In this document: positions 36 to 62,697 of the stretch, in pieces | Position numbering within the stretch: the first letter of the stretch is position 1 | Layout of the letters: each line of letters starts with the position of its first letter | Assembly: GCA_041649715.1 (NCBI GenBank) | Contig: JBAZMP010000001.1 | Span: 309,287-373,286, forward strand | Direction: 5' to 3' | DNA from: Patescibacteria group bacterium | GTDB lineage: Bacteria; Patescibacteriota; Patescibacteriia; JAXHNJ01 | DNA length: 64,000 bases | Program-made: the position numbers and the translations under genes | Notes under the pieces: model-generated | What the model saw: the letters and a program-made list of their open reading frames with translations, nothing else | Told to the model about the DNA's origin: nothing | The model's database searches: none

Positions 36-76
36 TTTTTTGGCTTGAATAAAAGCAGGAAAAATGCTAAGGTAGG
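36..76 (+). promoter_or_regulatory. Conserved ~40-bp upstream element, copy 1 (TTGAAT-17 bp-TAAGGT promoter-like) in front of dinD
   Basis: The sequence TTTTTTGGCTTGAATAAAAGCAGGAAAAATGCTAAGGTA is repeated almost identically at 1086..1126 in front of the next operon. It reads as a -35 TTGAAT, a 17-bp spacer, a TGn motif and a -10 TAAGGT. Confidence 0.45.
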
Positions 77-118
77 GGAGTAACATATACGAATTTCGGT
101 GGCTGGGAGAAAAAATAT

Positions 119-973
119 ATGGAAAAACAGATCATTGTCCGGCTGCATAAAAATTTCGAGGATTGCGCCCGCGAAAAAGACGGCGTGGAATTTTGGTATG
201 CCCGCGAATTGCAGGAATTGCTCAACTATGACAAGTGGGGCAATTTTGAGAATGTCATAAATAAGGCGAAAATAGCCTGCCGGAACGCGAAACAAGAGGT
301 CGCCGACCATTTTGCCGACGTCGGGAAAATGGTTGATTTGGGTTCCGGAAGCCAGCGTGAAGTGCCTGATATTATGCTGACGCGTTATGCCTGCTACCTG
401 ATCGCCCAGAATGGCGATCCGCGAAAAGACGAGATTGCTTTCGCTATGACCTATTTCGCGGTGCAGACGCACAAGCAGGAAATAGTCGAGCAGCGCCTGG
501 TCCAGTGGGAACGGGTGCGCGACCGGGGAAAGCTTTCTACTTCTGAAAAATCTCTTTCCGGCGTGCTTTTTGAGCGCGGAGTGGACAGCCAGGGGTTTGC
601 CCGGATCAGGAGCAAAGGTGATGCCGAGCTTTTTGGCGGATTAACAACTCAGGATATGAAGCAGAAATTAGGCGTGCCGAACAGCCGACCGCTGGCTGAT
701 TTTTTGCCCAGCGTAACCATTAAGGCCAAGGATTTGGCGAATGAAATAACTAGCCATAATATCCGGAAAGATACGGATTTGCGGGGGGAAGTTCCCATTA
801 CTTCAGAGCACGTGAAAAGCAACCGCAATATGCGCCAGATGCTCGGCAAGAGCGGCATTTACCCCGAAGACTTGCCGGCGGAGGAAGACGTGAAAAAGCT
901 TGAACGCAAGCTTAAGTCGGAAAATAAAAAATTGCCAAAGGCGGTTAAGAAGCTGAAAGATAGCAAAAAATAA
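119..973 (+). CDS. dinD: DNA-damage-inducible protein D (DinD)-like protein
   Basis: 284 aa. Strong collinear similarity to E. coli DinD as I recall it: ...GSGSQREVPDIMLTRYACYLIAQNGDPRKD... matches GSGAQRELEDVHLSRYACYLVVQNGDP. It also has FWYARELQELLNYDKWGNF and a basic C-terminus. Confidence 0.8.
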   Translation: MEKQIIVRLHKNFEDCAREKDGVEFWYARELQELLNYDKWGNFENVINKAKIACRNAKQEVADHFADVGKMVDLGSGSQREVPDIMLTRYACYLIAQNGDPRKDEIAFAMTYFAVQTHKQEIVEQRLVQWERVRDRGKLSTSEKSLSGVLFERGVDSQGFARIRSKGDAELFGGLTTQDMKQKLGVPNSRPLADFLPSVTIKAKDLANEITSHNIRKDTDLRGEVPITSEHVKSNRNMRQMLGKSGIYPEDLPAEEDVKKLERKLKSENKKLPKAVKKLKDSKK

Positions 974-1062
974 TCCCACGTTGAGACATTAGAAAAACAG
1001 CCCAAGCTCTAAAGTGCCGCTTAAAGATTGAATTTGTTAAATAGATAATAATAGGCTTTGTG

Positions 1063-1092
1063 GCGCCTCGCTGCGGCTCGGCGCCTTTTTTG
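1063..1092 (+). terminator. Intrinsic terminator after dinD
   Basis: GGCGCC-tcgctgcggctc-GGCGCC hairpin followed by TTTTTT. Confidence 0.5.
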
Positions 1093-1126
1093 GCTTGAAT
1101 AAAAGTAAGAAAAATGCTAAGGTAAA
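1086..1126 (+). promoter_or_regulatory. Conserved ~40-bp upstream element, copy 2 (TTGAAT-17 bp-TAAGGT) in front of the restriction-modification operon
   Basis: TTTTTTGGCTTGAATAAAAGTAAGAAAAATGCTAAGGTA matches copy 1 at 38 of 41 positions. Confidence 0.45.
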
Positions 1127-1213
1127 GGCATAAAATAACACAAATTTTGGTGGAAAATAGATTATAATACGGAGGTAAATTAAAAGAATTTTTGGGCAAT
1201 TAAATAAAAATAT

Positions 1214-3586
1214 ATGAATAGAAATGTAGTTGAAGAATATTTAAAAAAACAGAAAATAAAAGTCGTTGAGGAATTTGATTTTGAAAAAAAGAAAGTAAAA
1301 TATTCCGAAAAGATAAGAGGTTGGAAGATTGATAAATTTAGGGGCGATGAGGAAATCGTTAGAGCTTTTGTTCTTGCTAAACTTGTAAACGAATTGGGAT
1401 ATAAACCTGAGAATATTGAATTGGAAAAAGAATATGATATTGGTAGACCAAAGGTAAATAAACCCAGAATTGATATTATAGTTAAAGACGATAAAGACAA
1501 CGTTTTTTTGTATATTGAATTAAAAAGCCCCGCAGATTATGAAAAAGATAAGGATGAAGTAATTGAGAAACAACTTTTTAATCTTGCTTCACAAGAACAG
1601 GGCCAAGGTAAAAAAGTAAAATATCTCGTATTATATACAATTGAAATTGTTGAAACCCAGATAAAAGACAAATGTATTTTGATTGACTATGAAAAATTTA
1701 ATTCATTCAACACGTGGAAAGAAGTACGAAATTACGCAGATGAATTACCCGAAAGATATGAAAAAGCTCAAAAAGAACCATACGTAAAAGGTGGAAAAAA
1801 AGATTTAGAGACAAACTTTTCATATGAACAGCTTGATGGGCTGAGAAAAAATCTACATAATGTACTTTGGGGAGGTGGTGGAACAGATGACAACGATATT
1901 TTTTCGTCATTAGTAAATATTATTTTGGCAAAAATTCAAGATGAAAGCGAAAAAGAGGAAGGCGGAGAATATGACTTCCAAATTCGTTCATTTAAAGATG
2001 GCGAAAGTTTTGAAACCAACCAGCAACTTTTTATAAAAATAAATGATCTTTATATAAGAGCGTTAAAACAAAGATTAAATATTATTGACGAAAATGAGTT
2101 AAAAGAAAGCTTTGTAATTGATAAAAAGAAATTTTCTCTTGCAAAATTAAAATACACTATAATGCAAATCGAGAGATATTCATTTGTGGACGGGAAAAAC
2201 AGCTTTGACGGTAAAGATATTCTAGGAGACTTTTTCGAGGGTATTATTAGAGAAGGATTTAAACAAACAAAAGGTCAATTTTTTACGCATGTTAATATTG
2301 TAAGGTTTTTGCTTTGGGGGTTGCAACTTGATAAGCTAGCAATTGATAAAGTGAATAAAGATTTAGAAATTCCCTACCTAATAGATCCAAGCGCCGGTAG
2401 CGGCACTTTCCTGATTGAATATATGAAGTTTATTACCGAAAATCTCAAGAGAAGATTTAAAAGTAGACTAGCAAAAAAAAGAGACGTAGAGGACAAATTT
2501 AATCAATGGTTTATCCCTGACCACCGAGAAAATAAATGGGCACAACATTATATTTATGGCATAGAAACTAATTTTAATCTAGGTACTGCTACTAAAGTAA
2601 ATATGATTTTGCATGGGGATGGCTCAACTAATGTTTTTGTTAAAGACGGACTATTACCTTTTAATTATTACGACAAAGAAACCGCGCCGAACTATTTGAA
2701 GCAAAGCGAACAAGACAAAAACTACTTTAATAAAGAAGTAAATAAGCAATTTGACGTGATTATAACTAATCCTCCATTTAGTGTCACTTTGGATAATGAA
2801 ACAAAAGAGCATCTTACTAAAGAGTTTATTTTTGGAAGCACAAAAAACTCGGAAAATTTGTTTGTAGAAAGATGGTATCAATTATTAAAACCTAACGGAA
2901 GATTTGGGGTAGTTTTGCCAGAAAGTGTTTTTGATACAACAGAAAATAAATACATTCGTCTATTTATTTACAAATATTTTAAAATTAAAGCAGTAGTTTC
3001 TTTACCACAACTTACTTTTCAGCCGTTTACAAGTACTAAGACTAGTCTTTTATTCGCTCAAAAGAAAACTGATAAGGAAATTGAAGAATGGAATAAACTT
3101 TGGAGTAAATATAGTAGTGAATGGAGTGCTCTAAAAAATAAGTGTAAAAATTTATTATTGGTCTATTTAGAAAACAAAGACAAAAAGAAATTATCTTCAA
3201 TCAAAGATTTGTTAGAATCGGAGAAAAAAGAGATATTATTAAGAATGCTTAAAGATAATATTGAAGAAGATGATAAAAAATTATTAGCAAAAGAGCTGAT
3301 ATATAAATACAAAAGTGAATTAGTTGAACTTTGTGAATATGATAACGATACTAAAGATGTTTTTGGTTTTGTCAATACCTGGTGGGTTTTTAGTGAGGTA
3401 GCAAAAATACTCAATTACAAAATTTTTATGGCAGAAGTAGAAAATATTGGATATAAAAGGACTAAAAGAGCTGAAAAACCTATGCCAAACGAACTTTATC
3501 GCGTAAATGATAAAGGAGAAGTTTTAGTTGATGATGGCAGGATAGAAACTGCTTTAGATTATTTAAGAAAAGTGATATGGGATTAA
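1214..3586 (+). CDS. Restriction-modification bifunctional subunit: N-terminal HSDR_N-type PD-(D/E)xK nuclease domain fused to a gamma-class N6-adenine DNA methyltransferase (BcgI-A-like Type IIB, or a Type I M-like subunit)
   Basis: 790 aa. The N-terminal region has PRIDIIVKDDKDNVFLYIELKSP, a D..ExK nuclease motif. Methyltransferase motif I is LIDPSAGSGTFLIEY and motif IV is ITNPPFSV. The gene overlaps the downstream S gene by 10 nt and is extremely AT-rich. Confidence 0.75.
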   Translation: MNRNVVEEYLKKQKIKVVEEFDFEKKKVKYSEKIRGWKIDKFRGDEEIVRAFVLAKLVNELGYKPENIELEKEYDIGRPKVNKPRIDIIVKDDKDNVFLYIELKSPADYEKDKDEVIEKQLFNLASQEQGQGKKVKYLVLYTIEIVETQIKDKCILIDYEKFNSFNTWKEVRNYADELPERYEKAQKEPYVKGGKKDLETNFSYEQLDGLRKNLHNVLWGGGGTDDNDIFSSLVNIILAKIQDESEKEEGGEYDFQIRSFKDGESFETNQQLFIKINDLYIRALKQRLNIIDENELKESFVIDKKKFSLAKLKYTIMQIERYSFVDGKNSFDGKDILGDFFEGIIREGFKQTKGQFFTHVNIVRFLLWGLQLDKLAIDKVNKDLEIPYLIDPSAGSGTFLIEYMKFITENLKRRFKSRLAKKRDVEDKFNQWFIPDHRENKWAQHYIYGIETNFNLGTATKVNMILHGDGSTNVFVKDGLLPFNYYDKETAPNYLKQSEQDKNYFNKEVNKQFDVIITNPPFSVTLDNETKEHLTKEFIFGSTKNSENLFVERWYQLLKPNGRFGVVLPESVFDTTENKYIRLFIYKYFKIKAVVSLPQLTFQPFTSTKTSLLFAQKKTDKEIEEWNKLWSKYSSEWSALKNKCKNLLLVYLENKDKKKLSSIKDLLESEKKEILLRMLKDNIEEDDKKLLAKELIYKYKSELVELCEYDNDTKDVFGFVNTWWVFSEVAKILNYKIFMAEVENIGYKRTKRAEKPMPNELYRVNDKGEVLVDDGRIETALDYLRKVIWD

Positions 3587-4989
3587 ATAAATTTACAGTT
3601 GATTTTCAAAATATTGGTGAACAACAATTTTTAAGACCCAATTTTGGTTACAGGTATTTTTTTGATATTCAGAATGCGGAAATTTATCCTACAAAAGATA
3701 GTATTAAATTAAAATATGTCTTGAATGAGATGCCGATGAAGAAAGTAAGCAAGGGTGAATTAGAAGAGTCAGAAATTCTGATTGATATAGGAAATATTGA
3801 AAGAAGATTTAATAATTTAATAAATTTAGTAGAAGTAGATAGAATAGGTTCTGATAAAAATATAATGCAATATGGAGACATCATTATACCTAAATTGCAA
3901 CCACAAATGGGGAATATTTTTTTAAATTCTGGTCATAAAAGATTTATAGGATCTACCGAATTGCTTGAATATAAAATTAATGAAAATTATAATCCCATAT
4001 TCATTTATTACTTAATTACTTCTAATAAATTTCTTTTTGATCTAGCAAAATTGGAAAGTGGAAAAGCGCATAGAAGGGTAAATTCAGTAGATCTGTTAAA
4101 AATTAGAATTCCCTTAATATCTAAAGAATCGCAAGATTTAATTGTTGCTCAAATATGGCCGATTGAAAAGAAAATTAATGAACTAAAAAAACAAATTGAA
4201 CAACCTCAAAATGTTATTAATAAAGTTTTTGCAAGAGAATTTGGTTTTGATTTAGAAAAATATGAAAAGTTAAAGAAAGATAAGTTTTCCGAAGTAGATT
4301 TAAAAGATATTTTGAGACATAATTTTGTTAGAATAAGTTTTCATTTTCATCATAAAACTCTTATTGCCATTGAAAATAAATTAAAAAATAAGAATTATTG
4401 GGCGCCGGTTAATTCATTATTTAGTTTATTCGGTGGAAAAAGAATACCAAAGGGTAAGAGTTTTTCGAATATCGAAACGGACTATTATTATTTAAGACCT
4501 ACGGAAGTAAGTATTTGGGGTATTGATAAGATTAACGTTCCATTTATCCCTGTATCAATTTATGATCAGTTAAAGAGATATAAAATAGTAACGGATGAAT
4601 TTTGTATTTCAATTGTCGGTACTTTAGGGAAAACCGCGTTAATTAACACAGATATTTTAGATATAGGAAAAGATAATTTAATATTAAGTGAAAACTTTAT
4701 TAAACTAAAACCTAAAAAACATATAAATAGTTTATTTTATATTTACTTTTTTTATAGTTTTATTTTTGAAGCGCAAATTAATAGAGAATATACCATAACA
4801 TCAATAAAAAAATTAGGTATTGATAAATGGAATAATATAAAAATTCCATGTATTTCTATTATAAAACAGCAAAAAATTGTTGATGAAATCAAGGGTGAAT
4901 TAGACAAACAAGAAAAATTTTATAAGAAAATTGAAATGGAAAGAGATAAAATTGATGAGATTATTGAAAAAGTGATTATTCGTGAATAG
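3577..4989 (+). CDS. hsdS: Restriction-modification specificity subunit (HsdS / BcgI-B-like, two target-recognition domains)
   Basis: 470 aa. Two variable domains are separated by the conserved central coiled-coil spacer (LISKESQDLIVAQIWPIEKKINELKKQIEQ). The C-terminus has a matching repeat (IKQQKIVDEIKGELDKQEKFYKKIE). It is translationally coupled to the methyltransferase gene. Confidence 0.8.
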   Translation: MGLNKFTVDFQNIGEQQFLRPNFGYRYFFDIQNAEIYPTKDSIKLKYVLNEMPMKKVSKGELEESEILIDIGNIERRFNNLINLVEVDRIGSDKNIMQYGDIIIPKLQPQMGNIFLNSGHKRFIGSTELLEYKINENYNPIFIYYLITSNKFLFDLAKLESGKAHRRVNSVDLLKIRIPLISKESQDLIVAQIWPIEKKINELKKQIEQPQNVINKVFAREFGFDLEKYEKLKKDKFSEVDLKDILRHNFVRISFHFHHKTLIAIENKLKNKNYWAPVNSLFSLFGGKRIPKGKSFSNIETDYYYLRPTEVSIWGIDKINVPFIPVSIYDQLKRYKIVTDEFCISIVGTLGKTALINTDILDIGKDNLILSENFIKLKPKKHINSLFYIYFFYSFIFEAQINREYTITSIKKLGIDKWNNIKIPCISIIKQQKIVDEIKGELDKQEKFYKKIEMERDKIDEIIEKVIIRE

Positions 4990-5064
4990 ACTCATATTTA
5001 AGTCATTTTTACAATATCCATTGACCTAATTTATTTCAATTAATAATTATTAATTAAGAATATT

Positions 5065-5985
5065 ATGGCAAATCTCTATTGGAAAAAGAATAAAAAAATA
5101 TTAGCCGCTACCGAGACACCATTTAAAACAGAAGATGAACTTGAACGTTATCTATTAGATACCCGGGGGATTTTAAGCGAAATCAATATAATAAATAGGC
5201 AAATTAGGTCCAAAACGGTTTCAGGAATAGAAATTCCAGATATGATCGGAGTTGATAGCGAGGGTTCCATTGTTATTATTGAAAATAAAAATGTTCCGGT
5301 TGATGAAAGGATTATTTCTCAGGTACTTAATTATGCTCTTTGGGCAGAATCTAATCCAGATTCAATAAAGAATTTATGGCTTCAAGCTGATCAAGAAGGC
5401 GTGGAACCAGAATGGGACAATTTACAAATTCGCATAATGATAGTTGCCCCAGAAATAAAACCACATTTAGCAAAATTCATTTCAAAAATTGGATACCCAA
5501 TTGATTTATTAGAGATAAAAAAATTTAATATTAGTAAAGATGAATTTATTGTGTTAAATAAAATAGAACCAAATATAATTGATACAAAACCAGTACATGC
5601 AAAAAGAAATTATGATTATTCATATTATTCAACCAATCATAATAAGGAAAGTGTAAAAAAACTTGAAAAAGCTGTAAATAGCGTTGAAAATTATGTTAAT
5701 AAAAACAAATGGAAATTAGAAAAAAAATTTAACCAAGGTTATGTGGGCTTTAAATATGGTTTTCCCTTAGTTTTTGGCATACAGTGGTTAGGAACCAGAT
5801 CCTTCGGGTTTTTTTTCAAAATGCCTAAAGCAAAAATGAAAAAAATTATTGTTCCGGGCCTTGAATTTAAGGGTTATAATGATCGGTGGGATCAAGTAGA
5901 ATATAAAATTATTTCACCTACTTTTGACGTTAAAAAATTAAAACCAGTGTTTCTAGCTTCATACAATTATGTCAAAGGAGAATAA
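5065..5985 (+). CDS. PD-(D/E)xK nuclease-like protein of unknown function (restriction-endonuclease-like fold, possible NucS/DUF91-like core)
   Basis: 306 aa. IPDMIGVDSEGSIVIIENKN followed by QVLNYALWAE reads as D...ExK plus a QxxxY motif. The gene is AT-rich and sits inside the defense island. Confidence 0.45.
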   Translation: MANLYWKKNKKILAATETPFKTEDELERYLLDTRGILSEINIINRQIRSKTVSGIEIPDMIGVDSEGSIVIIENKNVPVDERIISQVLNYALWAESNPDSIKNLWLQADQEGVEPEWDNLQIRIMIVAPEIKPHLAKFISKIGYPIDLLEIKKFNISKDEFIVLNKIEPNIIDTKPVHAKRNYDYSYYSTNHNKESVKKLEKAVNSVENYVNKNKWKLEKKFNQGYVGFKYGFPLVFGIQWLGTRSFGFFFKMPKAKMKKIIVPGLEFKGYNDRWDQVEYKIISPTFDVKKLKPVFLASYNYVKGE

Positions 5986-6031
5986 CATTTTTTCTTTAAA
6001 AGTTGCGCTATAATATAATAAGATATGCAGC

Positions 6032-6598
6032 ATGAGTAATCTTGAAACATTTTTCGAACAATTCGAAGAATGGGTGCTAAAAGATATTAAAATAGTACTA
6101 GAATTAGTAAATAAAGAAGGTAATTCATTAGCCCCTGATAGAAGAGTGGTGGTTTGGCGGCGCCCGCTTGTCGCCGGAGTTATATTAATATGTTGCGCTA
6201 TCGATACATTAGCCGCATTTCGTTATGGCCGAACTAATAATAATGTGGGAACATATTTTATGCGCTTTGTTAGAGATTATTTTGCGCAAAGCCGTGACAC
6301 TAGATATAATGATGAGCAAATCTATAAGGGGTTACGTAATGCATTATTACACGGCTATTCTCTTGGATCAGATTTAGCATTAAGTCATACTAGCGCTTCA
6401 CGGCATTTGACGAAAGAAGCAAACAAAATAGTTATAGATGTATTTTCACTGCAGCAAGATTTAGAAAAAGTATATTCTATCTATAAAAGTGAATTGAAAA
6501 ATGGACAACATATTCCAGAATTTAATGATAGATGGAATTACGCACCTCTTATTCAATATTTTCCTGATATAGATTTAAAACTTAATAGCAGAAATTAA
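6032..6598 (+). CDS. Hypothetical protein (defense-island associated)
   Basis: 188-aa ORF with no recognisable motif. It follows the nuclease-like gene 46 nt downstream and is followed by a strong terminator. Confidence 0.5.
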   Translation: MSNLETFFEQFEEWVLKDIKIVLELVNKEGNSLAPDRRVVVWRRPLVAGVILICCAIDTLAAFRYGRTNNNVGTYFMRFVRDYFAQSRDTRYNDEQIYKGLRNALLHGYSLGSDLALSHTSASRHLTKEANKIVIDVFSLQQDLEKVYSIYKSELKNGQHIPEFNDRWNYAPLIQYFPDIDLKLNSRN

Positions 6599-6652
6599 AG
6601 TAATTCAAACATAAGCTCATTTTTCCCTCCCCACTGGCGGTTTTTGCCTAAC

Positions 6653-6687
6653 AAAAAAATCCTCAAAAAAGCTGACGAGGATTTTTG
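6653..6687 (+). terminator. Intrinsic terminator
   Basis: AAAAAATCCTC-aaaaaagctgac-GAGGATTTTTG hairpin. Confidence 0.6.
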
Positions 6688-6691
6688 ACTA

Positions 6692-6871
6692 TTAAATAGT
6701 CAAATCGTGAATAGGTACACTAGCTGCCCAACGTTTTATCCATTGAACAGAATCTATAGCATTTTGTTTTGAGGAATAACCCTCACTCCAAGCAACGAAT
6801 TCGTTGTTTGCAGCAACAAGACGCCATCGGTACTCATTTGCGTTATCACGATAGATTTCGAATCTAATCAT
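6692..6871 (-). CDS. YegP/UPF0339 (DUF1508) family small protein, absent from the ORF track because it is under 60 aa
   Basis: Reverse-strand translation gives MIRFEIYRDNANEYRWRLVAANNEFVAWSEGYSSKQNAIDSVQWIKRWAASVPIHDLTI (59 aa), the classic DUF1508 pattern FEIYkDkageyRfRLkA.NGEiia.SegY.sk. Confidence 0.7.
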   Translation of the reverse strand: MIRFEIYRDNANEYRWRLVAANNEFVAWSEGYSSKQNAIDSVQWIKRWAASVPIHDLTI

Positions 6872-7293
6872 GATTTTTTTCCTTTGTTAGACTATACTTA
6901 GGAGTCGACCTTTAATTTACTCCCAGGACAAAAACCAAATAATTTAGTTCCTATCAGGGGAGAATTAAAAGCGACTTAATCTAGATATAGAATAAGCGCC
7001 GGATTTTACCTCGCCAGCTTTTTCAAAGAGTTTTTAACAGCTACATACTAACGAATAATAATGTCTCTGTCAAGTAGGTTTATTATTTTAGCTAAAAAGC
7101 TTATAATAAATCCATGTCCAAATACTACAACTCTAAGCGCACCAAACATCTTTTTGACCCTACCTTTTTTAACGCTATTTGTTATAAGCACTAAATCCGA
7201 AATACGAAACTCTAAACAAATTCTAATTTCTCAAATCCGAAATTCGAAACTGAGGGTTTTAAAAGCCAAAGACGATAACGAAAAACAAGCGGT

Positions 7294-7695: not shown

Positions 7696-8283
7696 ATGAA
7701 ATGGCTAGATTTTGAGCGAAAAATTAAGAGTAAAAATATTAAGCTGTTCACGCCGCTTGATGTGCAGAGATTTTTAGGCCGGTCTAAAATAGCCGCCCGT
7801 TTTTTGATCCATCGCCTGAAAAAAAATGGCTATATTGTGAGCCTCAAACGCGGTTTGTATAAGCTGTCCGATGAACAAATTCCGGATCTGTATCTGGCCA
7901 ATAATATTTACGCCCCCTCGTATGTTTCCCTGGAATTCGCCCTTTCGTACCACGGAGTCATTCCCGAAACTGTCTATGAGATAACTTCGGTTACCACCAA
8001 GGCCACCCGCCGGTTTGAGGCGCTGGGAAAAGTTTTTTCTTACCACAAAATAAAAAAACCGGCTTTTACCGGCTATGTCATCCAAAAACAGGGCGGGTTG
8101 GGTTTTCACGTCGCCGAACCAGAAAAGGCTTTCGTGGATGCGAATTATTTTCGGCTCTTGGACGGCCGAAAACCGCTGTCCCGCTTCAACAAGGATAAAA
8201 TTGATTTAAAAAAGGCCTTGTTTTATGCCGCTCTTTTCGGCAATCAGAAACTTAACAATATAATTAAAACAACGCTTCAATGA
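7696..8283 (+). CDS. abiEi: Type IV toxin-antitoxin system antitoxin AbiEi (winged-HTH transcriptional regulator)
   Basis: 195 aa. The N-terminus MKWLDFERKIKSK...FTPLDVQRFLGRSKIAARFLIHRLKKNGYIVSLKRGLYKL is typical of AbiEi. The gene overlaps the downstream gene by 4 nt (ATGA). Confidence 0.75.
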   Translation: MKWLDFERKIKSKNIKLFTPLDVQRFLGRSKIAARFLIHRLKKNGYIVSLKRGLYKLSDEQIPDLYLANNIYAPSYVSLEFALSYHGVIPETVYEITSVTTKATRRFEALGKVFSYHKIKKPAFTGYVIQKQGGLGFHVAEPEKAFVDANYFRLLDGRKPLSRFNKDKIDLKKALFYAALFGNQKLNNIIKTTLQ

Positions 8284-9023
8284 TTTCCCAGGAATTAATA
8301 AAAAAAATAGCCAGTCAGAATAAAACAGCGGATTTTCCCAATATTGTCCGCGAGTATTTTCAGCACCTTTTTTTATCCGAGCTCTATAGATTATCCGGCG
8401 CCGAGAATTTGCTTTTTAAGGGCGGGACCGCTTTGCGCATTATCTACGGCAGTCCGCGCTTTTCCGAGGATTTGGATTTTACCCTGATCGGCGTTGAAGG
8501 TTACCGGAAAAAGGAATTCGCGGAAAGCCTGTTTCTCAGCGTTTTGACCGAGATTGAAAAAATCGGCATTAAGGTGGAGATAAACCGGAAGTCGGATGAG
8601 ACCCGCGAGGGTTATTTTGGCGATGCGAACTATCAGGTTTATGATTATCCCGAAACGTCCGTGAGTATAAATATATCCTCAAGAGAGGGAAAAGATATTA
8701 AGGGCGAGATTGATTCCATCGCCAATGATTTCATACCGACTTATAATATTCTGCATCTGTCAAAAAATGTGTTGGTGGAAGAAAAAATAACGGCCGCGAT
8801 CACTCGGGCGAAACCCAGAGATTTTTACGATGTCTATTTTATCCTTAGAAAAAATTTGCTGGCGACAGAAAATAAAAAAATACTCCCTGACATCCTTGAT
8901 AAATTGAATAACACTGATATTAATTTTACCCAGGAATTAGGCATTTTCTTGCCGAAGGATCAGCAGCAAATAGTGAAAGATTTCAAGAATATTTTAACTT
9001 CTGAAATAAAGCGTTATATTTAG
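8280..9023 (+). CDS. abiEii: Type IV toxin-antitoxin system toxin AbiEii (DUF1814 nucleotidyltransferase)
   Basis: 247 aa. It has the nucleotidyltransferase motif LFKGGTALRIIYGSPRFSEDLDFTL (GS...DxD), and its size and operon partner are typical. Confidence 0.75.
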   Translation: MISQELIKKIASQNKTADFPNIVREYFQHLFLSELYRLSGAENLLFKGGTALRIIYGSPRFSEDLDFTLIGVEGYRKKEFAESLFLSVLTEIEKIGIKVEINRKSDETREGYFGDANYQVYDYPETSVSINISSREGKDIKGEIDSIANDFIPTYNILHLSKNVLVEEKITAAITRAKPRDFYDVYFILRKNLLATENKKILPDILDKLNNTDINFTQELGIFLPKDQQQIVKDFKNILTSEIKRYI

Positions 9024-13175: not shown

Positions 13176-14480
13176 TTGAGTAAACAAATGCCGTATATTT
13201 TGTTATCAGACATCAAGCAATATTTAGGCCAAGAGGTGCTTCTTAAAGGCTGGGTTTTTAACGCCCGGTCTTCCGGAAGCCTCTTTTTTTTACAGCTGCG
13301 GGACGGCTTGGGAGAGGTTCAGGGAGTAGTTTCCAAAAAAGAAGTCAGCCCGGAGGTTTTTGACGCCGCAAAGAAGCTTCAGATAGAATCTTCCGTGGAA
13401 GTCACCGGGATTTTGAAAGAAGAGGCTAAATCGCCCTCGGGTTTTGAAATTCAGGTTAAGGATTTGAAAGTCATTCAGATAGCCTCCGATTACCCGATCG
13501 CCAAAAAAGAGCACGGCCCGGATTTTCTGATGGATAACCGGCATTTGTGGCTTCGTTCTTCCCGCCAGCGGGCGATTTTAAAAATAAGGGATTCGGTTAT
13601 TTGGGCCGCCCGCAAATTTTTTAAAGACAATAATTTTACGCTGACGGATTCGCCGATCCTGACGCCGACCGCCTGCGAAGGGACGACCACGCTTTTTAAA
13701 ACCAAATATTTTGAGGAAGACGCTTATCTCGCGCAGTCCGGACAATTATACATTGAAGCGACGGCCGCCGCCCTGGGCCGGGTTTATGATTTCGGGCCTA
13801 CATTCCGGGCGGAAAAATCCAAGACCCGTCGTCACCTGATGGAATTCTGGATGCTGGACGCGGAAGCGGCTTTTGTGGAGCATGAGGAAAACTTAAAGAT
13901 CCAGGAAAATCTGATCAGTTCCATTGTTAAATATGTTTTGGAAAATAATAAAAAAGAGCTGGCAGTTTTGGAAAGAGACATAAAACCTTTGGAAAAAATT
14001 AAGCCGCCTTTTTACCGCAAGAAATATGAAGAGGTTATTAAGGATCTGCAAAGCAAGGGAAGCCCGATAAAATCCGGGGATGATTTCGGCGGAGACGAGG
14101 AAACCCTGATTTCCAAGGATCTGGACAAACCGGTTTTTGTCACGCATTGGCCGAAAAGTATAAAACCTTTTTACATGAAACAGGATCCCCGAAATCCCAA
14201 ATTAGTTTTGAATGCTGATTGCCTCGCCCCGGAAAGTTTTGGCGAGATCATCGGCGGTTCGCAAAGGGAAGATGATTATGAAACTTTGAAAGCCAACATG
14301 GAAAAAGCGAAAATTCCCATCAAGGATTACCAGTGGTATTTGGATTTGCGCCAATACGGCACTTTTCCGCACTCCGGTTTTGGCTTGGGAATTGAAAGAA
14401 CCGTGGCCTGGATCTGCGGATTAAAGCATATCCGCGAGACGATACCGTTTCCAAGAATGCTGAATAGACTTAGGCCATAG
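13176..14480 (+). CDS. asnS: Asparagine--tRNA ligase
   Basis: 434 aa. Class II motif 2 is FRAEKSKTRRHLMEFWMLDAE and motif 3 is GFGLGIERTVAWICGLKHIRETIPFPR. It has an N-terminal OB anticodon-binding domain and the size typical of AsnRS. A TTG start sits 5 nt after AGGAGG. Confidence 0.85.
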   Translation: MSKQMPYILLSDIKQYLGQEVLLKGWVFNARSSGSLFFLQLRDGLGEVQGVVSKKEVSPEVFDAAKKLQIESSVEVTGILKEEAKSPSGFEIQVKDLKVIQIASDYPIAKKEHGPDFLMDNRHLWLRSSRQRAILKIRDSVIWAARKFFKDNNFTLTDSPILTPTACEGTTTLFKTKYFEEDAYLAQSGQLYIEATAAALGRVYDFGPTFRAEKSKTRRHLMEFWMLDAEAAFVEHEENLKIQENLISSIVKYVLENNKKELAVLERDIKPLEKIKPPFYRKKYEEVIKDLQSKGSPIKSGDDFGGDEETLISKDLDKPVFVTHWPKSIKPFYMKQDPRNPKLVLNADCLAPESFGEIIGGSQREDDYETLKANMEKAKIPIKDYQWYLDLRQYGTFPHSGFGLGIERTVAWICGLKHIRETIPFPRMLNRLRP

Positions 14481-18659: not shown

Positions 18660-20039
18660 ATGGACCGCATTTTCACTTCGCAAACCTTAGACAAGGTCGA
18701 TAAAAAAATAAAGCTGGCCGGCTGGGTGCACCGGACGCGCCGGATGGGCTCGATCGTTTTTATTGACCTGCGCGACCGCGAAGGCCTGATCCAGGTGGTT
18801 TTTGACAAGCATTTTAAAGAAGCCCGGGAATTGCGGCCGGAATTTGTCATTGAGTTGGAGGGTAAAGTAGTCAAGCGCGAATTAAAAAATATCAATACGG
18901 ATTCGCCGACCGGCGAAATAGAGGTGCAGGCCACAAGCCTGAAAGTGCTGGCCAAAGCGAAGACTCCGCCTTTTGAAATTGAAAATGAAGAGCGGCAGGC
19001 CAGCGAGGAATTAAGGCTTAAATACCGCTATCTGGATCTGCGGCACGAAAGAATGAAAAAGAACCTGATCTTGCGCCACAAAGTGATCAAATTCATCCGC
19101 GACTGGCTTTCTACCTCCGGTTTTATGGAAATTGAAACGCCGCTTTTGACCAAGGGCACGCCGGAAGGGGCCAGAGAGTACATCGTCCCTTCCCGCAATT
19201 TTGCCGGCCAATTCTATGTCCTGCCGCAAAGCCCCCAGCAGTTCAAGCAATTGCTGATGGTGGCGGGCTTGGAAAAATATTTCCAGATCGCCAGATGCTT
19301 CCGCGATGAAGACGCCAGGGGAGACCGGCAGGCGGAATTTACCCAATTAGACTTGGAAATGTCCTTTGTCTCCCAGGAAGATATATTGAAGCTTTCCGAG
19401 GAATTGTTCATTCAGCTGGTCCAAAAAATCTGTCCGGAGAAAAAGATCGCCAAGATTCCTTTTCCGCGCTTAAGTTATGATGAGTCCATGAAAAAGTATA
19501 AAAGCGACAAGCCGGATCTGCGGAAGAATAAAAAAGACAATAACGAACTGGCTTTTGCCTGGGTTTTGAATCCTCCGCTTTTTGAAAAAAGCGTGACGGA
19601 AAAAAAGTGGGTTTCCACCCACCATCCTTTTACTATGCCGGTCGAGGATGATATTGAATTATTAGATAAAGAGCCAAAAAAAGTTAAAGCGCAATCCTAT
19701 GATATAGTTTTAAATGGTTTTGAAATCGGTACCGGGAGTGTCAGAATCCACGAGGCTTCCTTACAGTACAAAATATTCCAAATTTTGGGTCTGAACGAAA
19801 AAGAGATCCAGGAGCGCTTCGGCCATATGCTGGAGGCTTTTTCCTACGGCGTGCCGCCGCACGCGGGCATCGCCCCGGGTTTAGACAGGTTAGTCATGAT
19901 ATTGGCCGGCGAGCCGAATATCCGGGAAGTGATCGCTTTCCCCAAGACCGCCGATGCCCGAGATTTAATGATGGGAGCACCGTCGGAGTTACCTGAGAGT
20001 CAGGTTAAAGAGGCATATATTAAGAAACTGAAAAATTAA
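18660..20039 (+). CDS. aspS: Aspartate--tRNA ligase (short form lacking the bacterial GAD insertion)
   Basis: 459 aa. Motif 2 is FQIARCFRDEDARGDRQAEFTQLDLEMSF. The GSVRIHE motif is present. Motif 3 is PPHAGIAPGLDRLVMILAGEPNIREVIAFPKT. Confidence 0.85.
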   Translation: MDRIFTSQTLDKVDKKIKLAGWVHRTRRMGSIVFIDLRDREGLIQVVFDKHFKEARELRPEFVIELEGKVVKRELKNINTDSPTGEIEVQATSLKVLAKAKTPPFEIENEERQASEELRLKYRYLDLRHERMKKNLILRHKVIKFIRDWLSTSGFMEIETPLLTKGTPEGAREYIVPSRNFAGQFYVLPQSPQQFKQLLMVAGLEKYFQIARCFRDEDARGDRQAEFTQLDLEMSFVSQEDILKLSEELFIQLVQKICPEKKIAKIPFPRLSYDESMKKYKSDKPDLRKNKKDNNELAFAWVLNPPLFEKSVTEKKWVSTHHPFTMPVEDDIELLDKEPKKVKAQSYDIVLNGFEIGTGSVRIHEASLQYKIFQILGLNEKEIQERFGHMLEAFSYGVPPHAGIAPGLDRLVMILAGEPNIREVIAFPKTADARDLMMGAPSELPESQVKEAYIKKLKN

Positions 20040-60117: not shown

Positions 60118-62697
60118 TTGTTTCATCTTCTACAAACATTATTGATTTCGAACCAAACAGCTCTGCCGGCCTTGACTAATTTAGGGGGCAAGCAGGCCGG
60201 TTTTTGGCAAAATCCCATACTGGTGGCCGTTTTATATTTTATCGCGGTATTGTTATTTTTGGCGGCGCTCATGTTTTTGGTTCGATATCTTCTGACGCGG
60301 CGCCAGGCCAGACCGGCCTCTTTAAGAAAAATCATCCTTTTAGTGACGCTGCCCAAGGAAGTCGGGAGTAAAGAAAAGCAGCCGGAAAAACCACTCAGGG
60401 AACTTATTGATGAAGCGGAAGCGATGTTTTCTTCTTTGGGCGGTATGCGGGCGCAGCGAGGCTTGGAAGTTTTTTTTACCGGGCGCACTGATCATTTTTC
60501 TCTGGAGATCGCCGCCTATGACGGTTTGATCTCATTTTACGTGGTTGTCCCGGCTTTTTTGCGGACTTACACCGAAGAGCAGATTCATTCCCAGTATCCG
60601 AAAGCGAACATCGAAGAAGTTGAGGATTATAATATTTTTACACCGGAAAGCCAGATCGTGGCCACTTCCCTCCGATTCAAAAAATCCTATATTTTTCCCA
60701 TCAAGACCTACCGTTTGATGGATGTCGATCCCTTAAGCTCGTTGACTAACGTTTTGTCAAAGATCCCGAAAGGAGAAGGGGCGGTTATCCAGTATATTGT
60801 TCGTTCGGCTAAAGCCCAATGGCACGGCCGCGGGGCCGGCGTGGCAAAAAAAATGCACGAAGGCAAAAATTTGAAGGAGGCGCAGGGCGTTCACGGCGTA
60901 AACGCGATCTTTTCGAATTTCGCCAGCATTTTTTTTCCCAAGAAGAAAAAAGAAGAAATGGATTTGCGGCCTAATTTTCGGGTATCCCCGCGCGATGAGG
61001 AAATCGCCAAAAGTTTGGAAGAGAAGACTTCCCGGGCGGGCATGGATGTAAATATACGCCTTATCGTCTCGGCTAAAACGAAAGAACGGGCCCTCGCGCT
61101 GAACCGGGAGATTGTTAATGCTTTTAGCCAGTATAACCTATACGAATACGGTAACGGTTTAGTCAAACGAAACCTCTGGACGCCCTGGAGCCAAAATAAG
61201 TTAGTGATGAGTTATATCTACCGGATGTATAACGAGCGTCATAAATTAATACTTAATTCCGAAGAAATGGCCAGCTTATTTCATTTTCCTCTGGAAAGCA
61301 CCGAAACCCCGAACATCCGCTGGCTGCTCGCCCGCAAGGCGCCCGCGCCGGTTAATCTTCCGTCAGAAGGCATAATCCTGGGGCAAAATATTTTCCGCGG
61401 AGAAAAGAAGCTTGTCCGCCTTAAGCGGGATGACCGTCGCCGGCACGTCTACATGATCGGGATGACCGGCTCGGGTAAATCAGTTCTCATGCAGGAAATG
61501 GTCAAGCAGGATATTCGGAATGGGGACGGTGTCTGCGTGATCGATCCGCATGGCGGACTAGTCGAGGACATTCTGGCCTGTATTCCTAAAGAAAGGGCGG
61601 AAGATGTCGTGCTGTTTGAACCATCTGACGTGGAAAGACCGGTGGGTTTGAATATGCTGGAAGCGACCAGCCCGGAAGAAGCGGATTTTGCCGTTCAGGA
61701 AATGATCGCCATTTTTTACAAGCTTTTTCCGCCGGAGATGATCGGTCCTATGTTTGAGCATAATATGCGCAATGTGATGCTGACCCTAATGGCCGATAAA
61801 GAATATCCCGGCACGATCGCCGATATTCCCCGTATGTTCACCGACAAGGCCTACCAGGAGTACAAATTGAAAAAGGTCACGGATCCGGTCGTGCGGTCAT
61901 TCTGGGAAAAAGAGATGGCGAAAACGACGGATTTCCACAAATCAGAAATGCTGGGCTACTTAATTTCTAAAGTCGGCCGTTTTGTGGAGAACCAGATGAT
62001 GCGCAATATAATCGGTCAGCCGCACTCGGGTTTTAATTTTCGGGAGGTGATGGATAAGCAGAAGGTTTTACTCGTAAATCTCTCCAAAGGAAAAACGGGC
62101 GAAGTTAACAGCAATTTGCTCGGCTTAATCCTTGTTTCCAAACTGCAGATGGCCGCTTTAGCCCGGGCGGATATGCCCGAGAGCGAAAGAAAGGACTTTT
62201 ATCTTTATATCGACGAATTCCAGAATTTCATCACTCCATCCATCGCGACCATTCTGTCTGAGGCAAGGAAATACAAATTGAATTTGATCATGGCTCATCA
62301 ATATCTGGGTCAATTGACGCAGGGGCAAAATAATAATATTCGCGACGCGGTTTTGGGGAACGTCGGCACGCTTATCGCTTTCCGTATCGGCGTTGAAGAC
62401 GCAGAAATTATCGCCCGTCAGCTGGATCCCGTTTTTTCCGAATACGACGTGGTGAATATCGCTCGTTTTAACGCGTATATAAAACTTTTAATTGATAATG
62501 CCACGGCTAAGGCTTTTAATATTGCTACTTTTCCTCCCACTATCGGCAATCCTTTAATTAGCAAAAAAATCAGGGAACTTTCTCGTTTGAAATATGGACG
62601 ATCAAGAATACAGGTTGAGGCAGAATTGATGGAGCGGACAAAATTGGGCGAAGTGATAAAAACACCGTTCCCGAGTTCAGGCGAGAAGAATATTTAG
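60118..62697 (+). CDS. VirB4/TrbE-like (AAA_10/DUF87 superfamily) P-loop ATPase, membrane-anchored
   Basis: 859 aa. A TTG start sits after AAAGGGGGAG. The N-terminus has a TM helix. Walker A is GMTGSGKS, Walker B is LYIDEFQNF, and the conserved EARKYKLNLIMAHQYLGQL motif is as in the VirB4/TraG families. Confidence 0.55.
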   Translation: MFHLLQTLLISNQTALPALTNLGGKQAGFWQNPILVAVLYFIAVLLFLAALMFLVRYLLTRRQARPASLRKIILLVTLPKEVGSKEKQPEKPLRELIDEAEAMFSSLGGMRAQRGLEVFFTGRTDHFSLEIAAYDGLISFYVVVPAFLRTYTEEQIHSQYPKANIEEVEDYNIFTPESQIVATSLRFKKSYIFPIKTYRLMDVDPLSSLTNVLSKIPKGEGAVIQYIVRSAKAQWHGRGAGVAKKMHEGKNLKEAQGVHGVNAIFSNFASIFFPKKKKEEMDLRPNFRVSPRDEEIAKSLEEKTSRAGMDVNIRLIVSAKTKERALALNREIVNAFSQYNLYEYGNGLVKRNLWTPWSQNKLVMSYIYRMYNERHKLILNSEEMASLFHFPLESTETPNIRWLLARKAPAPVNLPSEGIILGQNIFRGEKKLVRLKRDDRRRHVYMIGMTGSGKSVLMQEMVKQDIRNGDGVCVIDPHGGLVEDILACIPKERAEDVVLFEPSDVERPVGLNMLEATSPEEADFAVQEMIAIFYKLFPPEMIGPMFEHNMRNVMLTLMADKEYPGTIADIPRMFTDKAYQEYKLKKVTDPVVRSFWEKEMAKTTDFHKSEMLGYLISKVGRFVENQMMRNIIGQPHSGFNFREVMDKQKVLLVNLSKGKTGEVNSNLLGLILVSKLQMAALARADMPESERKDFYLYIDEFQNFITPSIATILSEARKYKLNLIMAHQYLGQLTQGQNNNIRDAVLGNVGTLIAFRIGVEDAEIIARQLDPVFSEYDVVNIARFNAYIKLLIDNATAKAFNIATFPPTIGNPLISKKIRELSRLKYGRSRIQVEAELMERTKLGEVIKTPFPSSGEKNI

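What the first reader, a model, noticed from the sequence alone, without database searches (positions are those of the whole stretch)
1214..4989. BcgI-like (Type IIB) or R-less Type I architecture: HSDR_N nuclease fused to an N6-adenine methyltransferase, with a separate two-domain S subunit
The 790-aa protein carries a D..ExK nuclease core N-terminal to methyltransferase motifs I and IV. The next gene, coupled by a 10-nt overlap, is an HsdS-like protein with two recognition domains. No helicase-type HsdR is anywhere in the window. This combination matches the A/B subunit organisation of Type IIB enzymes, which cut on both sides of the site, rather than a classical Type I system.
Basis: partly seen in the sequence, partly recalled or inferred. 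Interest (0 to 1): 0.55.

Follow-up and report, generated by a model that had tools for sequence, protein, structure and literature searches.

The report
BsaXI-like Type IIB restriction-modification pair
These two overlapping genes encode a restriction-modification enzyme closely related to the structurally solved Type IIB enzyme BsaXI, in a short form lacking BsaXI's "paddle"; it is an ordinary, correctly spotted phage-defence system with a probably new DNA specificity.

Summary
ORF 1214-3586 (790 aa) fuses a PD-(D/E)xK nuclease to a gamma-class N6-adenine methyltransferase. ORF 3577-4989 (470 aa) overlaps it by 10 nt and encodes an S subunit with the layout TRD1-CR1-TRD2-CR2.

The Type IIB reading is supported and can be made more specific. 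The 790-aa protein is 57.7% identical, end to end, to RM.BsaXI (PDB 8w0p, E 1.3e-275). All four nuclease residues essential in BsaXI are present (E71, D87, E102, K104), as are motif I (DPSAGSG) and motif IV (NPPF).

No HsdR or helicase lies in the window, in 10 kb further upstream, or next to seven related loci. In those loci RM-S travels as a two-gene, AT-rich module.

The one departure from BsaXI is the missing ~120-aa C-terminal "paddle"; the "knob" is kept. This short (<800 aa) clade was already described computationally in the 2025 BsaXI structure paper, but that paper reports no activity for it.

The S subunit's recognition domains differ from BsaXI's, so the recognition sequence is probably new.

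The neighbouring candidate defence genes (DinD/PDC-S13, PDC-S18) are not conserved partners.

Verdict: new member of a known kind; modest interest.

The parts
1086..1137 (+). Promoter-like 5' region upstream of the RM gene. It follows a hairpin and T-run at 1069-1089, contains TTGAAT-N17-TAAGGT, and is a near-copy of the region upstream of dinD (36-87).
   Evidence: Direct repeat D1, 87% identical. The alignment extends to about 80 nt and includes the same AAAAATATATG start context. There are only 2 copies in the window against 0 expected. Promoter function is inferred, not shown.
1214..3586 (+). RM subunit gene (790 aa): nuclease, helical connector, N6-adenine methyltransferase, knob and short C-terminal tail. 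There is no paddle.
1214..1777 (+). N-terminal PD-(D/E)xK endonuclease domain (residues 1-188). Catalytic residues E71, D87, E102 and K104 correspond to BsaXI E73, D90, E105 and K107.
   Evidence: Pfam HSDR_N_2. Residue mapping. E71, D87 and K104 are invariant, and E102 is E in 41 and D in 1, among 42 homologs. dN/dS is about 0.12.
1778..2248 (+). Multi-helical connector (residues 189-345, corresponding to BsaXI 193-348).
   Evidence: 58.7% identical to BsaXI. Domain limits are taken from PMC11997821.
2249..3061 (+). Gamma-class N6-adenine methyltransferase domain (residues about 346-616). Motif I DPSAGSG is at 391 and motif IV NPPF at 519.
   Evidence: Pfam N6_Mtase and Eco57I. 66.8% identical to BsaXI. 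Both motifs are invariant in 42 homologs.
3062..3412 (+). Knob (residues about 617-733, corresponding to BsaXI 626-742): one long helix followed by several short helices. In BsaXI its base forms the cradle that holds a TRD of the S subunit.
   Evidence: Aligned to BsaXI at 44.8% identity. It is the only confident part of the AlphaFold model (pLDDT 84-91; helix 620-653 followed by short helices).
3413..3586 (+). Post-knob strand and C-terminal tail (residues 734-790). The ~120-aa paddle of BsaXI (about 775-897) is replaced by VNDKGEVLVDDGRIET. The conserved tail TALDYLRKVIWD is retained.
   Evidence: Alignment A1 with the 910-aa form P0103. P0103 aligns to BsaXI 7-915, including the paddle and the tail.
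3577..3586 (+). 10-nt overlap ATGGGATTAA between the RM stop and the S start, suggesting translational coupling.
   Evidence: The same 10-nt overlap is present in L007, L009 and L010. S.BsaXI also starts MGL.
3577..4989 (+). S (specificity) subunit gene (470 aa): TRD1 (about 1-184), CR1 (about 185-234), TRD2 (about 235-429), CR2 (about 430-470).
   Evidence: PADLOC Specificity_I hits in two stretches, plus NCBIfam. Collinear with S.BsaXI at 22% identity. Alignment A4 shows CR1, CR2 and the N-terminus conserved and the TRDs variable.

Best explanation
This is a two-gene Type IIB restriction-modification system of the BsaXI family.

Inferred from homology: two copies of the 790-aa RM protein bind one S protein, giving an (RM)2S complex. 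[quoted passage not shown] The two TRDs read the two halves of a bipartite, asymmetric DNA site. Each methyltransferase domain flips out one adenine and methylates it with SAM, which protects host DNA. On unmethylated (foreign) DNA, the N-terminal PD-(D/E)xK domains, tethered by the helical connector, cut at fixed distances on both sides of the site and excise a short fragment. No ATP-driven translocase is needed.

Shown here: the domain architecture, conservation of the catalytic and SAM-binding residues, the S-subunit layout, the coupled two-gene organisation, the absence of an HsdR, and the absence of the paddle.

Inferred only: the stoichiometry, two-sided cleavage and the recognition sequence. 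The recognition sequence probably differs from BsaXI's AC(N5)CTCC because both TRDs differ.

The pair sits in a low-GC island (about 28% against about 46%) in a Patescibacteria genome, next to other defence genes. It was probably acquired horizontally.
For: RM matches RM.BsaXI (8w0p_A) at E 1.3e-275 and 920 bits, query 4-765 against 6-774, with 57.7% identity overall.

BsaXI's essential residues E73, D90, E105 and K107 (PMC11997821) map to E71, D87, E102 and K104. In 42 short-form homologs E71, D87 and K104 are invariant, and position 102 is E in 41 and D in 1.

The nuclease domain shows pN 0.18 against a saturated pS of 0.72, with dN/dS about 0.12, comparable with the knob and tail.

Motifs I and IV are invariant.

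S is collinear with S.BsaXI. Its CR1, CR2 and N-terminus are conserved with the S genes that follow RM homologs, while its TRDs are variable.

All 7 independent loci with downstream DNA have S after RM. RM identity is 64-81% and S identity 24-41%. Three of them have the same 10-nt overlap. None has an HsdR.

No helicase or HsdR is present in the window or in 10 kb upstream.

BsaXI activity has been reconstituted from RM + S alone (PMC9159934).

The short form is not a truncation: it keeps the conserved C-terminal tail, and 118 of the 120 best homologs are 789-807 aa long.
Against: No activity data exist for this protein, and the BsaXI structure paper reports none for any short-form relative.

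In BsaXI, alanine substitutions of two paddle residues (D816, E823) inactivate cleavage, though D816A keeps a low partial activity. The whole paddle is missing here, so cleavage competence or geometry could differ.

Pfam Methylase_S does not reach E 0.01 on this S protein.

The AlphaFold model was poor (mean pLDDT 55), so the knob assignment rests mainly on sequence alignment.

Only about 74 kb of the genome was inspected, so a distant hsdR cannot be excluded.
Confidence: 0.85

Rival explanations
1. The pair is in effect a methyltransferase only (an 'R-less Type I' M2S enzyme). The N-terminal nuclease domain would be vestigial or serve only as a DNA-binding or regulatory module, particularly because the paddle needed for BsaXI cleavage is absent.
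For: The paddle is absent. BsaXI paddle mutants D816A and E823A lose cleavage. Public annotation names the protein only 'N-6 DNA methylase'.
Against: In 42 homologs three of the four catalytic residues are invariant and the fourth has a single conservative E-to-D change. The nuclease domain has dN/dS about 0.12 with synonymous sites saturated. Hundreds of short forms keep the domain at constant length. The BsaXI authors note that D816 and E823 are not conserved beyond the two closest homologs, and they favour an indirect role for the paddle.
Confidence: 0.07
2. The pair is the M and S part of a classical Type I system. Its HsdR motor subunit would be encoded elsewhere in the genome.
For: JGI annotators call homologs 'type I restriction enzyme M protein'. 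PADLOC MTase_I and Specificity_I models match. Only about 74 kb of the genome was seen.
Against: No HsdR or helicase is present in the window, in 10 kb upstream, or in the flanks of 7 related loci in unrelated hosts. There is no HsdM_N domain. The protein carries its own nuclease and is 57.7% identical to an enzyme that works without HsdR.
Confidence: 0.03
3. The short, paddle-less RM needs a neighbouring protein from the same low-GC island to cleave. The candidate is PDC-S18 (5065-5985), which has a PD...ExK motif. The functional unit would then have three or more genes.
For: PDC-S18 lies 76 nt downstream of S on the same strand. It shares the low G+C (about 29%). It has a PD-x15-ExK motif at residues 58-75 and a weak NucS match.
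Against: tblastn finds no PDC-S18, ORF188 or DinD homolog in the flanks of any of the 8 other RM loci, which are mostly short forms. PDC families are untested candidates defined by being embedded in many different systems.
Confidence: 0.04
4. It is part of a MADS (methylation-associated defence system), with the two proteins acting as MAD2 and MAD5.
For: The best NCBIfam hits are MAD2 (E 5e-48) and MAD5 (E 5e-12). PADLOC mad2 and mad5 models also match.
Against: The scores are far below the equivalog cut-offs: 163.8 against 720 and 45.4 against 400. No further defence gene of this kind was called next to the pair. The match to BsaXI is vastly stronger.
Confidence: 0.01

Closest known systems
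BsaXI (Type IIB, Geobacillus/Bacillus stearothermophilus 25B; PDB 8w0p, 8w2p, 8w2q; PMC11997821, PMC9159934)
   Same: The architecture matches: nuclease, connector, gamma-class N6A methyltransferase and knob in one chain, plus a separate TRD1-CR1-TRD2-CR2 S subunit. RM identity is 57.7%. All four essential nuclease residues and the SAM and catalytic motifs are conserved. The S protein begins MGL, and related RM-S pairs, both short and long forms, share the 10-nt gene overlap (BsaXI's own gene junction was not examined).
   Different: The ~120-aa antiparallel two-helix paddle is missing (BsaXI about 775-897, including D816 and E823), giving 790 aa against 916 aa. S is only 22% identical and has different TRDs, so a recognition sequence other than AC(N5)CTCC is expected. 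The host is a Patescibacteria MAG rather than a thermophilic Firmicute.
Short (<800 aa) BsaXI homologs with knob but no paddle (Fig. 9 of PMC11997821)
   Same: The length class, the knob-only architecture and the high identity to BsaXI all match. This protein belongs to that group, as do 118 of its 120 best database hits.
   Different: Nothing structural differs. The paper described the group only by AlphaFold modelling and phylogeny and reports no activity or specificity for any member. Here a 910-aa paddle-bearing protein (P0103) is 81% identical to the short protein over the shared region. That is as close as the other short forms, so the paddle behaves as an indel among close relatives.
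BcgI and other RM + S Type IIB enzymes (BaeI, BveI and others)
   Same: The two-subunit logic is the same: a nuclease-methyltransferase fusion plus an HsdS-like subunit, with no motor subunit.
   Different: According to PMC11997821, BcgI-type RM subunits have an EcoKI-like methyltransferase with a lone C-terminal helix of the kind shown in EcoKI to bundle with CR1/CR2, and they have no knob. This protein has the BsaXI-type knob instead. No BcgI sequence was available here for a direct comparison.
Single-chain RMS Type IIB enzymes
   Same: They have a knob-bearing RM module joined to a TRD1-CR1-TRD2-CR2 module. The homolog P0119 (1289 aa, 77% identical) is an in-frame RM-S fusion of this same family.
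   Different: Here RM and S are separate, overlapping genes.
Type I M2S methyltransferase core (EcoKI, TteMSS 5ybb)
   Same: The gamma-class N6_Mtase fold and the HsdS-like S subunit are shared. There are weak PDB matches to HsdM and HsdS chains.
   Different: This protein carries its own nuclease domain. There is no HsdM_N domain, no HsdR motor and no ATP-dependent translocation.

Membership tests
Type IIB restriction-modification enzymes (RM + S subgroup) | PD-(D/E)xK endonuclease domain and N6-adenine methyltransferase domain in one polypeptide | tested here: met
   Pfam HSDR_N_2 46-107 and N6_Mtase 334-625. E71, D87, E102, K104, DPSAGSG 391 and NPPF 519 are present.
Type IIB restriction-modification enzymes (RM + S subgroup) | Separate HsdS-like specificity subunit with two TRDs and two conserved helices | tested here: met
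   PADLOC Specificity_I matches in two stretches. Collinear with S.BsaXI. CR1 and CR2 are conserved and the TRDs variable. Pfam Methylase_S itself did not reach E 0.01.
Type IIB restriction-modification enzymes (RM + S subgroup) | No ATP-dependent motor (HsdR/Res) subunit | tested here: met
   None found in the window, in 10 kb upstream, or in the flanks of 7 related loci. The rest of the genome was not seen.
Type IIB restriction-modification enzymes (RM + S subgroup) | Cleaves both strands on both sides of a bipartite recognition site, excising a short fragment | not testable with these tools
   This requires biochemistry. It is inferred only from homology to BsaXI.
BsaXI subfamily | Full-length sequence homology to RM.BsaXI with the four essential nuclease residues | tested here: met
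   E 1.3e-275 and 57.7% identity. E73, D90, E105 and K107 map to E71, D87, E102 and K104.
BsaXI subfamily | Knob: multi-helical insertion between the 7th and 8th strands of the methyltransferase sheet | tested here: met
   BsaXI 626-742 aligns to residues 622-733 at 44.8% identity. The AlphaFold segment 620-710 has pLDDT 84-91, with a long helix and then short helices.
BsaXI subfamily | Paddle: long antiparallel two-helix extension near the C-terminus (carrying D816 and E823 in BsaXI) | tested here: not met
   The segment is absent. The alignment to BsaXI stops at residue 774. In A1 the short forms have a gap of about 120 aa where the 910-aa P0103 has the paddle. P0103 aligns to BsaXI 7-915. 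This places the protein in the short, knob-only clade already noted in PMC11997821.
BsaXI subfamily | (RM)2S heterotrimer | not testable with these tools
   No multimer prediction or biochemistry was available.
Classical Type I RM | HsdR subunit with SF2 helicase motor, and HsdM with an HsdM_N domain | tested here: not met
   No ResIII, Helicase_C or HsdR hit in any scanned ORF. No HsdM_N hit in the RM protein.
MADS (MAD2/MAD5) | Scores above the NCBIfam equivalog cut-offs | tested here: not met
   MAD2 scores 163.8 bits against a cut-off of 720. MAD5 scores 45.4 against 400.
BcgI-type Type IIB | EcoKI-like methyltransferase with a lone C-terminal helix of the EcoKI kind that bundles with CR1/CR2, and no knob (as described in PMC11997821) | tested here: not met
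   A knob is present, and the C-terminus is the BsaXI-type tail TALDYLRKVIWD. A direct sequence comparison with BcgI A was not possible because no sequence was available.

The most novel reading that the evidence does not exclude
The paddle-less clade, represented here, could cut DNA differently from BsaXI. Possibilities include different cut distances or overhangs, an obligatory requirement for two sites with nuclease dimerisation in trans, or nicking only. Alternatively, if it is a fully active two-sided cutter, it would be a natural experiment showing that the paddle is not a second catalytic site (Hypothesis 1 of the BsaXI structure paper). A 910-aa paddle-bearing protein is 81% identical to this one over the shared region, so the paddle looks like a swappable module. 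That makes the question directly testable with natural pairs.
Probability: 0.25. Interest if true: 0.45.

Novelty: new member of a known kind. Interest (0 to 1): 0.25.

Why it matters
There are three practical points.

1. Public annotation calls this protein only "N-6 DNA methylase". It is almost certainly a complete restriction enzyme, and probably has a new bipartite specificity. Type IIB enzymes are useful reagents, for example in 2b-RAD genotyping.

2. It is a natural paddle-less relative of BsaXI. Testing it alongside an 81%-identical paddle-bearing relative would bear on the open question of how Type IIB enzymes make two precise double-strand breaks, and on whether the paddle is catalytic.

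3. The same AT-rich RM-S module is found at 76-80% protein identity in Patescibacteria, Gammaproteobacteria, Ignavibacteriota-type bacteria and the archaeon Methanoperedens, and under NCBI's name in a Nanoarchaeota MAG. This illustrates cross-domain spread of a compact defence module.

None of this is surprising to a specialist in restriction-modification systems.

Tried and rejected
- **AlphaFold2 model of the RM protein** (38-sequence alignment, 77-83% identical). It gave mean pLDDT 55 and pTM 0.36. It was too poor for fold searches, so none were run. Only the confident knob segment was used.
- **PDB search with the S protein.** It did not retrieve a BsaXI S chain even at E = 10. I rebuilt S.BsaXI from the construct tables in PMC9159934. 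A few residues at domain borders (QFSKKV, VELMAL, PIPP) were filled in from variant constructs or the text, so that sequence is approximate.
- **PDB query with the C-terminal 35 aa.** It returned only designed TPR proteins, which is irrelevant. The tail was placed through the 910-aa homolog instead.
- **The search for related loci in single-protein mode.** It gave only 4 loci. Contexts were supplemented with exact-protein look-ups.
- **Promoter and terminator scan.** It was uninformative: 34 promoter-like sites against 33.3 expected.
- **Island borders.** No tRNA was found, and no convincing att-like repeat flanks the low-GC island.
- **Plasmids.** There was only one distant hit, at 44.6% identity, so there is no evidence of plasmid carriage.
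- **Orphan copies.** No extra S or TRD copies are present in the window.
- **Hypotheses rejected.** MADS membership was rejected because scores are far below the cut-offs. Classical Type I was rejected because there is no HsdR. DinD, PDC-S18 and ORF188 were rejected as obligate partners because they are absent from all other RM loci. A truncated pseudogene was rejected because the conserved tail and constant length are kept.


Full report
**Observation**

They overlap by the 10 nt ATGGGATTAA.

Pfam finds three domains in the 790-aa protein: HSDR_N_2 (residues 46-107, 34.2 bits against a cut-off of 25), N6_Mtase (334-625, 96.7 bits) and Eco57I. The nuclease core is E71...D87...E102-x-K104. Methyltransferase motif I (DPSAGSG) is at residue 391 and motif IV (NPPF) at 519.

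The 470-aa protein gets no Pfam Methylase_S hit at E <= 0.01. PADLOC Type I specificity-subunit models do match it in two separate stretches (best E 1.4e-22), and NCBIfam PRK09737 and MAD5 also match.

G+C is about 27-29% across these genes, against about 46% for the rest of the window.

**Is an HsdR hiding?**

The locus lies at the left edge of the window, so I recovered the source contig (L001, 382 kb; window position 1 = L001 position 8788). The 10 kb upstream encode a PEGA-domain protein, a small-molecule methyltransferase, a NYN-domain protein, a 23S_rRNA_IVP-type four-helix-bundle protein and DinD. No helicase is present.

Within the window, none of the ORFs of 375 aa or more that were scanned has a ResIII, Helicase_C or HsdR domain. 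Those with Pfam hits are tRNA synthetases, DnaK, DnaJ, a glycosyltransferase, an ABC-2 permease, a T4SS coupling protein and similar.

**What it is**

A sequence search of the PDB gives one overwhelming hit: RM.BsaXI (8w0p_A, 916 aa), E 1.3e-275 and 920 bits, aligning query 4-765 to BsaXI 6-774.

Counted from that alignment, identity is 57.7% over 756 columns. By domain it is 49.5% (nuclease), 58.7% (connector), 66.8% (methyltransferase) and 44.8% (knob).

BsaXI is a characterised Type IIB enzyme. It cuts on both sides of AC(N5)CTCC, and its activity was reconstituted from the RM and S subunits alone (PMC9159934). Its cryo-EM structure is an (RM)2S heterotrimer (PMC11997821).

Alanine scanning in that paper identified E73, D90, E105 and K107 as essential nuclease residues. 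These map to E71, D87, E102 and K104 here.

In an alignment of 42 short-form homologs, E71, D87, K104 and both methyltransferase motifs are invariant. Position 102 is E in 41 sequences and D in 1.

At about 80% mean identity, invariance alone is weak evidence, so I also compared substitution rates across eight short-form genes. In the nuclease domain pN is 0.18 while pS is saturated at 0.72. dN/dS is about 0.12 for the pairs where it is finite. That is similar to the knob and tail and only somewhat higher than the methyltransferase domain. The nuclease domain is being maintained, not decaying.

**The paddle**

BsaXI has two unusual elements: a multi-helical knob (626-742) and a long two-helix paddle near the C-terminus. 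Two paddle substitutions (D816A, E823A) inactivate cleavage, although D816A keeps a low partial activity.

The window protein keeps the knob. Residues 622-733 align to BsaXI 626-742. This is the only confident part of an otherwise poor AlphaFold model: pLDDT 84-91 there, with a long helix at 620-653 followed by short helices, against a mean pLDDT of 55 for the whole model.

It lacks the paddle. In alignment A1 the short forms have VNDKGEVLVDDGRIET where the 910-aa homolog P0103 has about 120 extra residues. Both then end in the same tail, TALDYLRKVIWD here and TALDFMRVIKWD in P0103. P0103 aligns to BsaXI over 7-915, paddle and tail included.

The gene is therefore not truncated. 118 of the 120 best database hits are 789-807 aa long.

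The BsaXI paper already reports this clade. It states that homologs under 800 residues have a knob but no paddle, and that D816 and E823 are not conserved beyond the two closest homologs. Its authors lean towards an indirect role for the paddle.

One point adds to that. P0103, which has a paddle, is 81% identical to this protein over the shared region. That is as close as the other short forms, so the paddle behaves as an indel among near relatives.

**The S subunit**

I rebuilt S.BsaXI from the construct tables of PMC9159934. The sequence is approximate at a few domain borders. The window's S protein is collinear with it over residues 32-466 against 68-472, at 22% identity (pairwise E 2e-7).

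I aligned it with the S genes that follow RM homologs in six other loci, plus S.BsaXI. The N-terminus (MGL..F..DF), CR1 (about 185-234) and CR2 (about 430-470) are well conserved. TRD1 and TRD2 vary. TRD1 resembles that of L003. TRD2 resembles none of the others.

This is the usual pattern of TRD shuffling. It implies a recognition sequence different from BsaXI's, which cannot be predicted here.

**Context and mobility**

The exact RM protein is on record as "MAG: N-6 DNA methylase [Patescibacteria group bacterium]". More than 2,300 homologs score E <= 1e-30.

Related loci come from a Gammaproteobacteria MAG, a Clostridia MAG, Candidatus Methanoperedens (an archaeon), a Melioribacteraceae MAG and others. 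NCBI's name for another close homolog (P0104) places it in a Nanoarchaeota MAG.

All 7 loci with downstream DNA have an S gene after RM. Three show the same 10-nt overlap. One (L008) has a 182-aa gene in between. RM identity is 64-81%, and S identity only 24-41%.

The flanks are unrelated to one another, and none holds an HsdR. The DEAD-box/DUF559 protein and the Mrr near L008 are separate defence genes.

The RM-S module is 26-32% G+C in every host, while the flanks range from 24 to 49%. Plasmid carriage is not evident.

**Neighbours**

DinD/PDC-S13 (119-973) has host-like G+C. PDC-S18 (5065-5985) and ORF188 (6032-6598) share the low-GC island, which spans window positions of roughly 1,000-7,200. 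PDC-S18 matches its PADLOC model over its full length (334 bits) and has a PD-x15-ExK motif.

PDC families are untested candidates, defined by being embedded in Type I RM, BREX or DISARM loci (bioRxiv 10.1101/2024.01.29.577857). No homolog of DinD, PDC-S18, ORF188 or AbiE occurs near any other RM locus. They are therefore neighbours in a defence island, not components of this system. An AbiEi/AbiEii pair follows at 7696-9023.

**Comparison and verdict**

The pair meets every sequence-testable criterion for a Type IIB RM + S system and for the BsaXI subfamily, except the paddle, which is absent.

- It is not a classical Type I system: there is no HsdR and no HsdM_N domain.
- It is not MADS: the scores are 163.8 against a cut-off of 720, and 45.4 against 400.
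- It is BsaXI-type rather than BcgI-type, because it has the knob where BcgI-type subunits have an EcoKI-like C-terminal helix.

Two-sided cleavage, the stoichiometry and the recognition site remain inferred.

The system is a new member of a known, recently structurally characterised kind, and belongs to a short clade already noted in the literature. Interest is modest. It lies in a probably new specificity and in the use of short/long pairs to test the role of the paddle.

Noticed in passing
window 36-87 and 1086-1137 (about 80 nt in the extended alignment; L001 8823-8874 and 9873-9924): dinD and the RM gene are each preceded by nearly the same 5' region: a hairpin and T-run, TTGAAT-N17-TAAGGT, a leader and an identical AAAAATATATG start context. 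There are only two copies in the window (0 expected by chance). This suggests a duplicated promoter or leader, perhaps created when one cassette was inserted next to the other.
   Followed up: partly
window 5065-5985 (+): This 306-aa protein matches PADLOC candidate PDC-S18 over its full length (334 bits). It has a PD-x15-ExK motif at residues 58-75 and a weak NucS-like match. It shares the low G+C of the RM-S genes, but no homolog was found next to any other RM homolog examined.
   Followed up: partly
window 119-973 (+): This is a DinD-like protein (NCBIfam PRK11525, 347 bits; Bro-N domain; PADLOC PDC-S13). It lies immediately upstream of the RM gene and has host-like G+C (about 49%), unlike the RM island.
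   Followed up: partly
window 6032-6598 (+) and 6692-6871 (-): A 188-aa ORF with no family match in Pfam, NCBIfam or PADLOC, and a 59-aa DUF1508 gene, complete the low-GC island downstream of PDC-S18.
   Followed up: no
window 7696-9023 (+): An AbiEi-like antitoxin (weak hit) and an AbiEii nucleotidyltransferase toxin (E 2.5e-26) form an overlapping gene pair. This is a further defence or toxin-antitoxin module in the same neighbourhood.
   Followed up: no
P0119 (1289 aa): This homolog, 77% identical, is an in-frame fusion of the RM protein to an S module, with CR1 and CR2 very similar to those of the window's S protein. The same family therefore spans both Type IIB architectures: RM + S and single-chain RMS.
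   Followed up: partly
P0103 / L010 8001-10733: This paddle-bearing 910-aa form is 81% identical to the short window protein over the shared region, as close as other short forms. The paddle thus looks like a gain or loss among near relatives rather than a deep split.
   Followed up: partly
L003-L010: The RM-S module is AT-rich (26-32% G+C) in every host, bacterial and archaeal (for example Methanoperedens), at 76-80% protein identity. This points to recent cross-domain horizontal transfer.
   Followed up: partly
L008 10373-10921: In one related locus a 182-aa gene with no Pfam hit sits between the RM and S genes. The same locus has an HTH gene directly upstream of RM, which could be a controller protein.
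   Followed up: no
L007 10388-11725 and L009 10415-11857 (alignment A4): The TRD1 of these S proteins resembles BsaXI TRD1, the domain assigned to 5'-AC-3' (shared RQGKGYPTL motif and neighbouring residues), although they are paired with short, paddle-less RM subunits.
   Followed up: no
window 60118-62697 (+); 13176-14480 and 18660-20039 (+): The contig, attributed to Patescibacteria, carries a T4SS coupling protein (TrwB/TraG-like, 859 aa). It also has two class II Asp/Asn/Lys-type tRNA synthetase paralogs about 5 kb apart.
   Followed up: no
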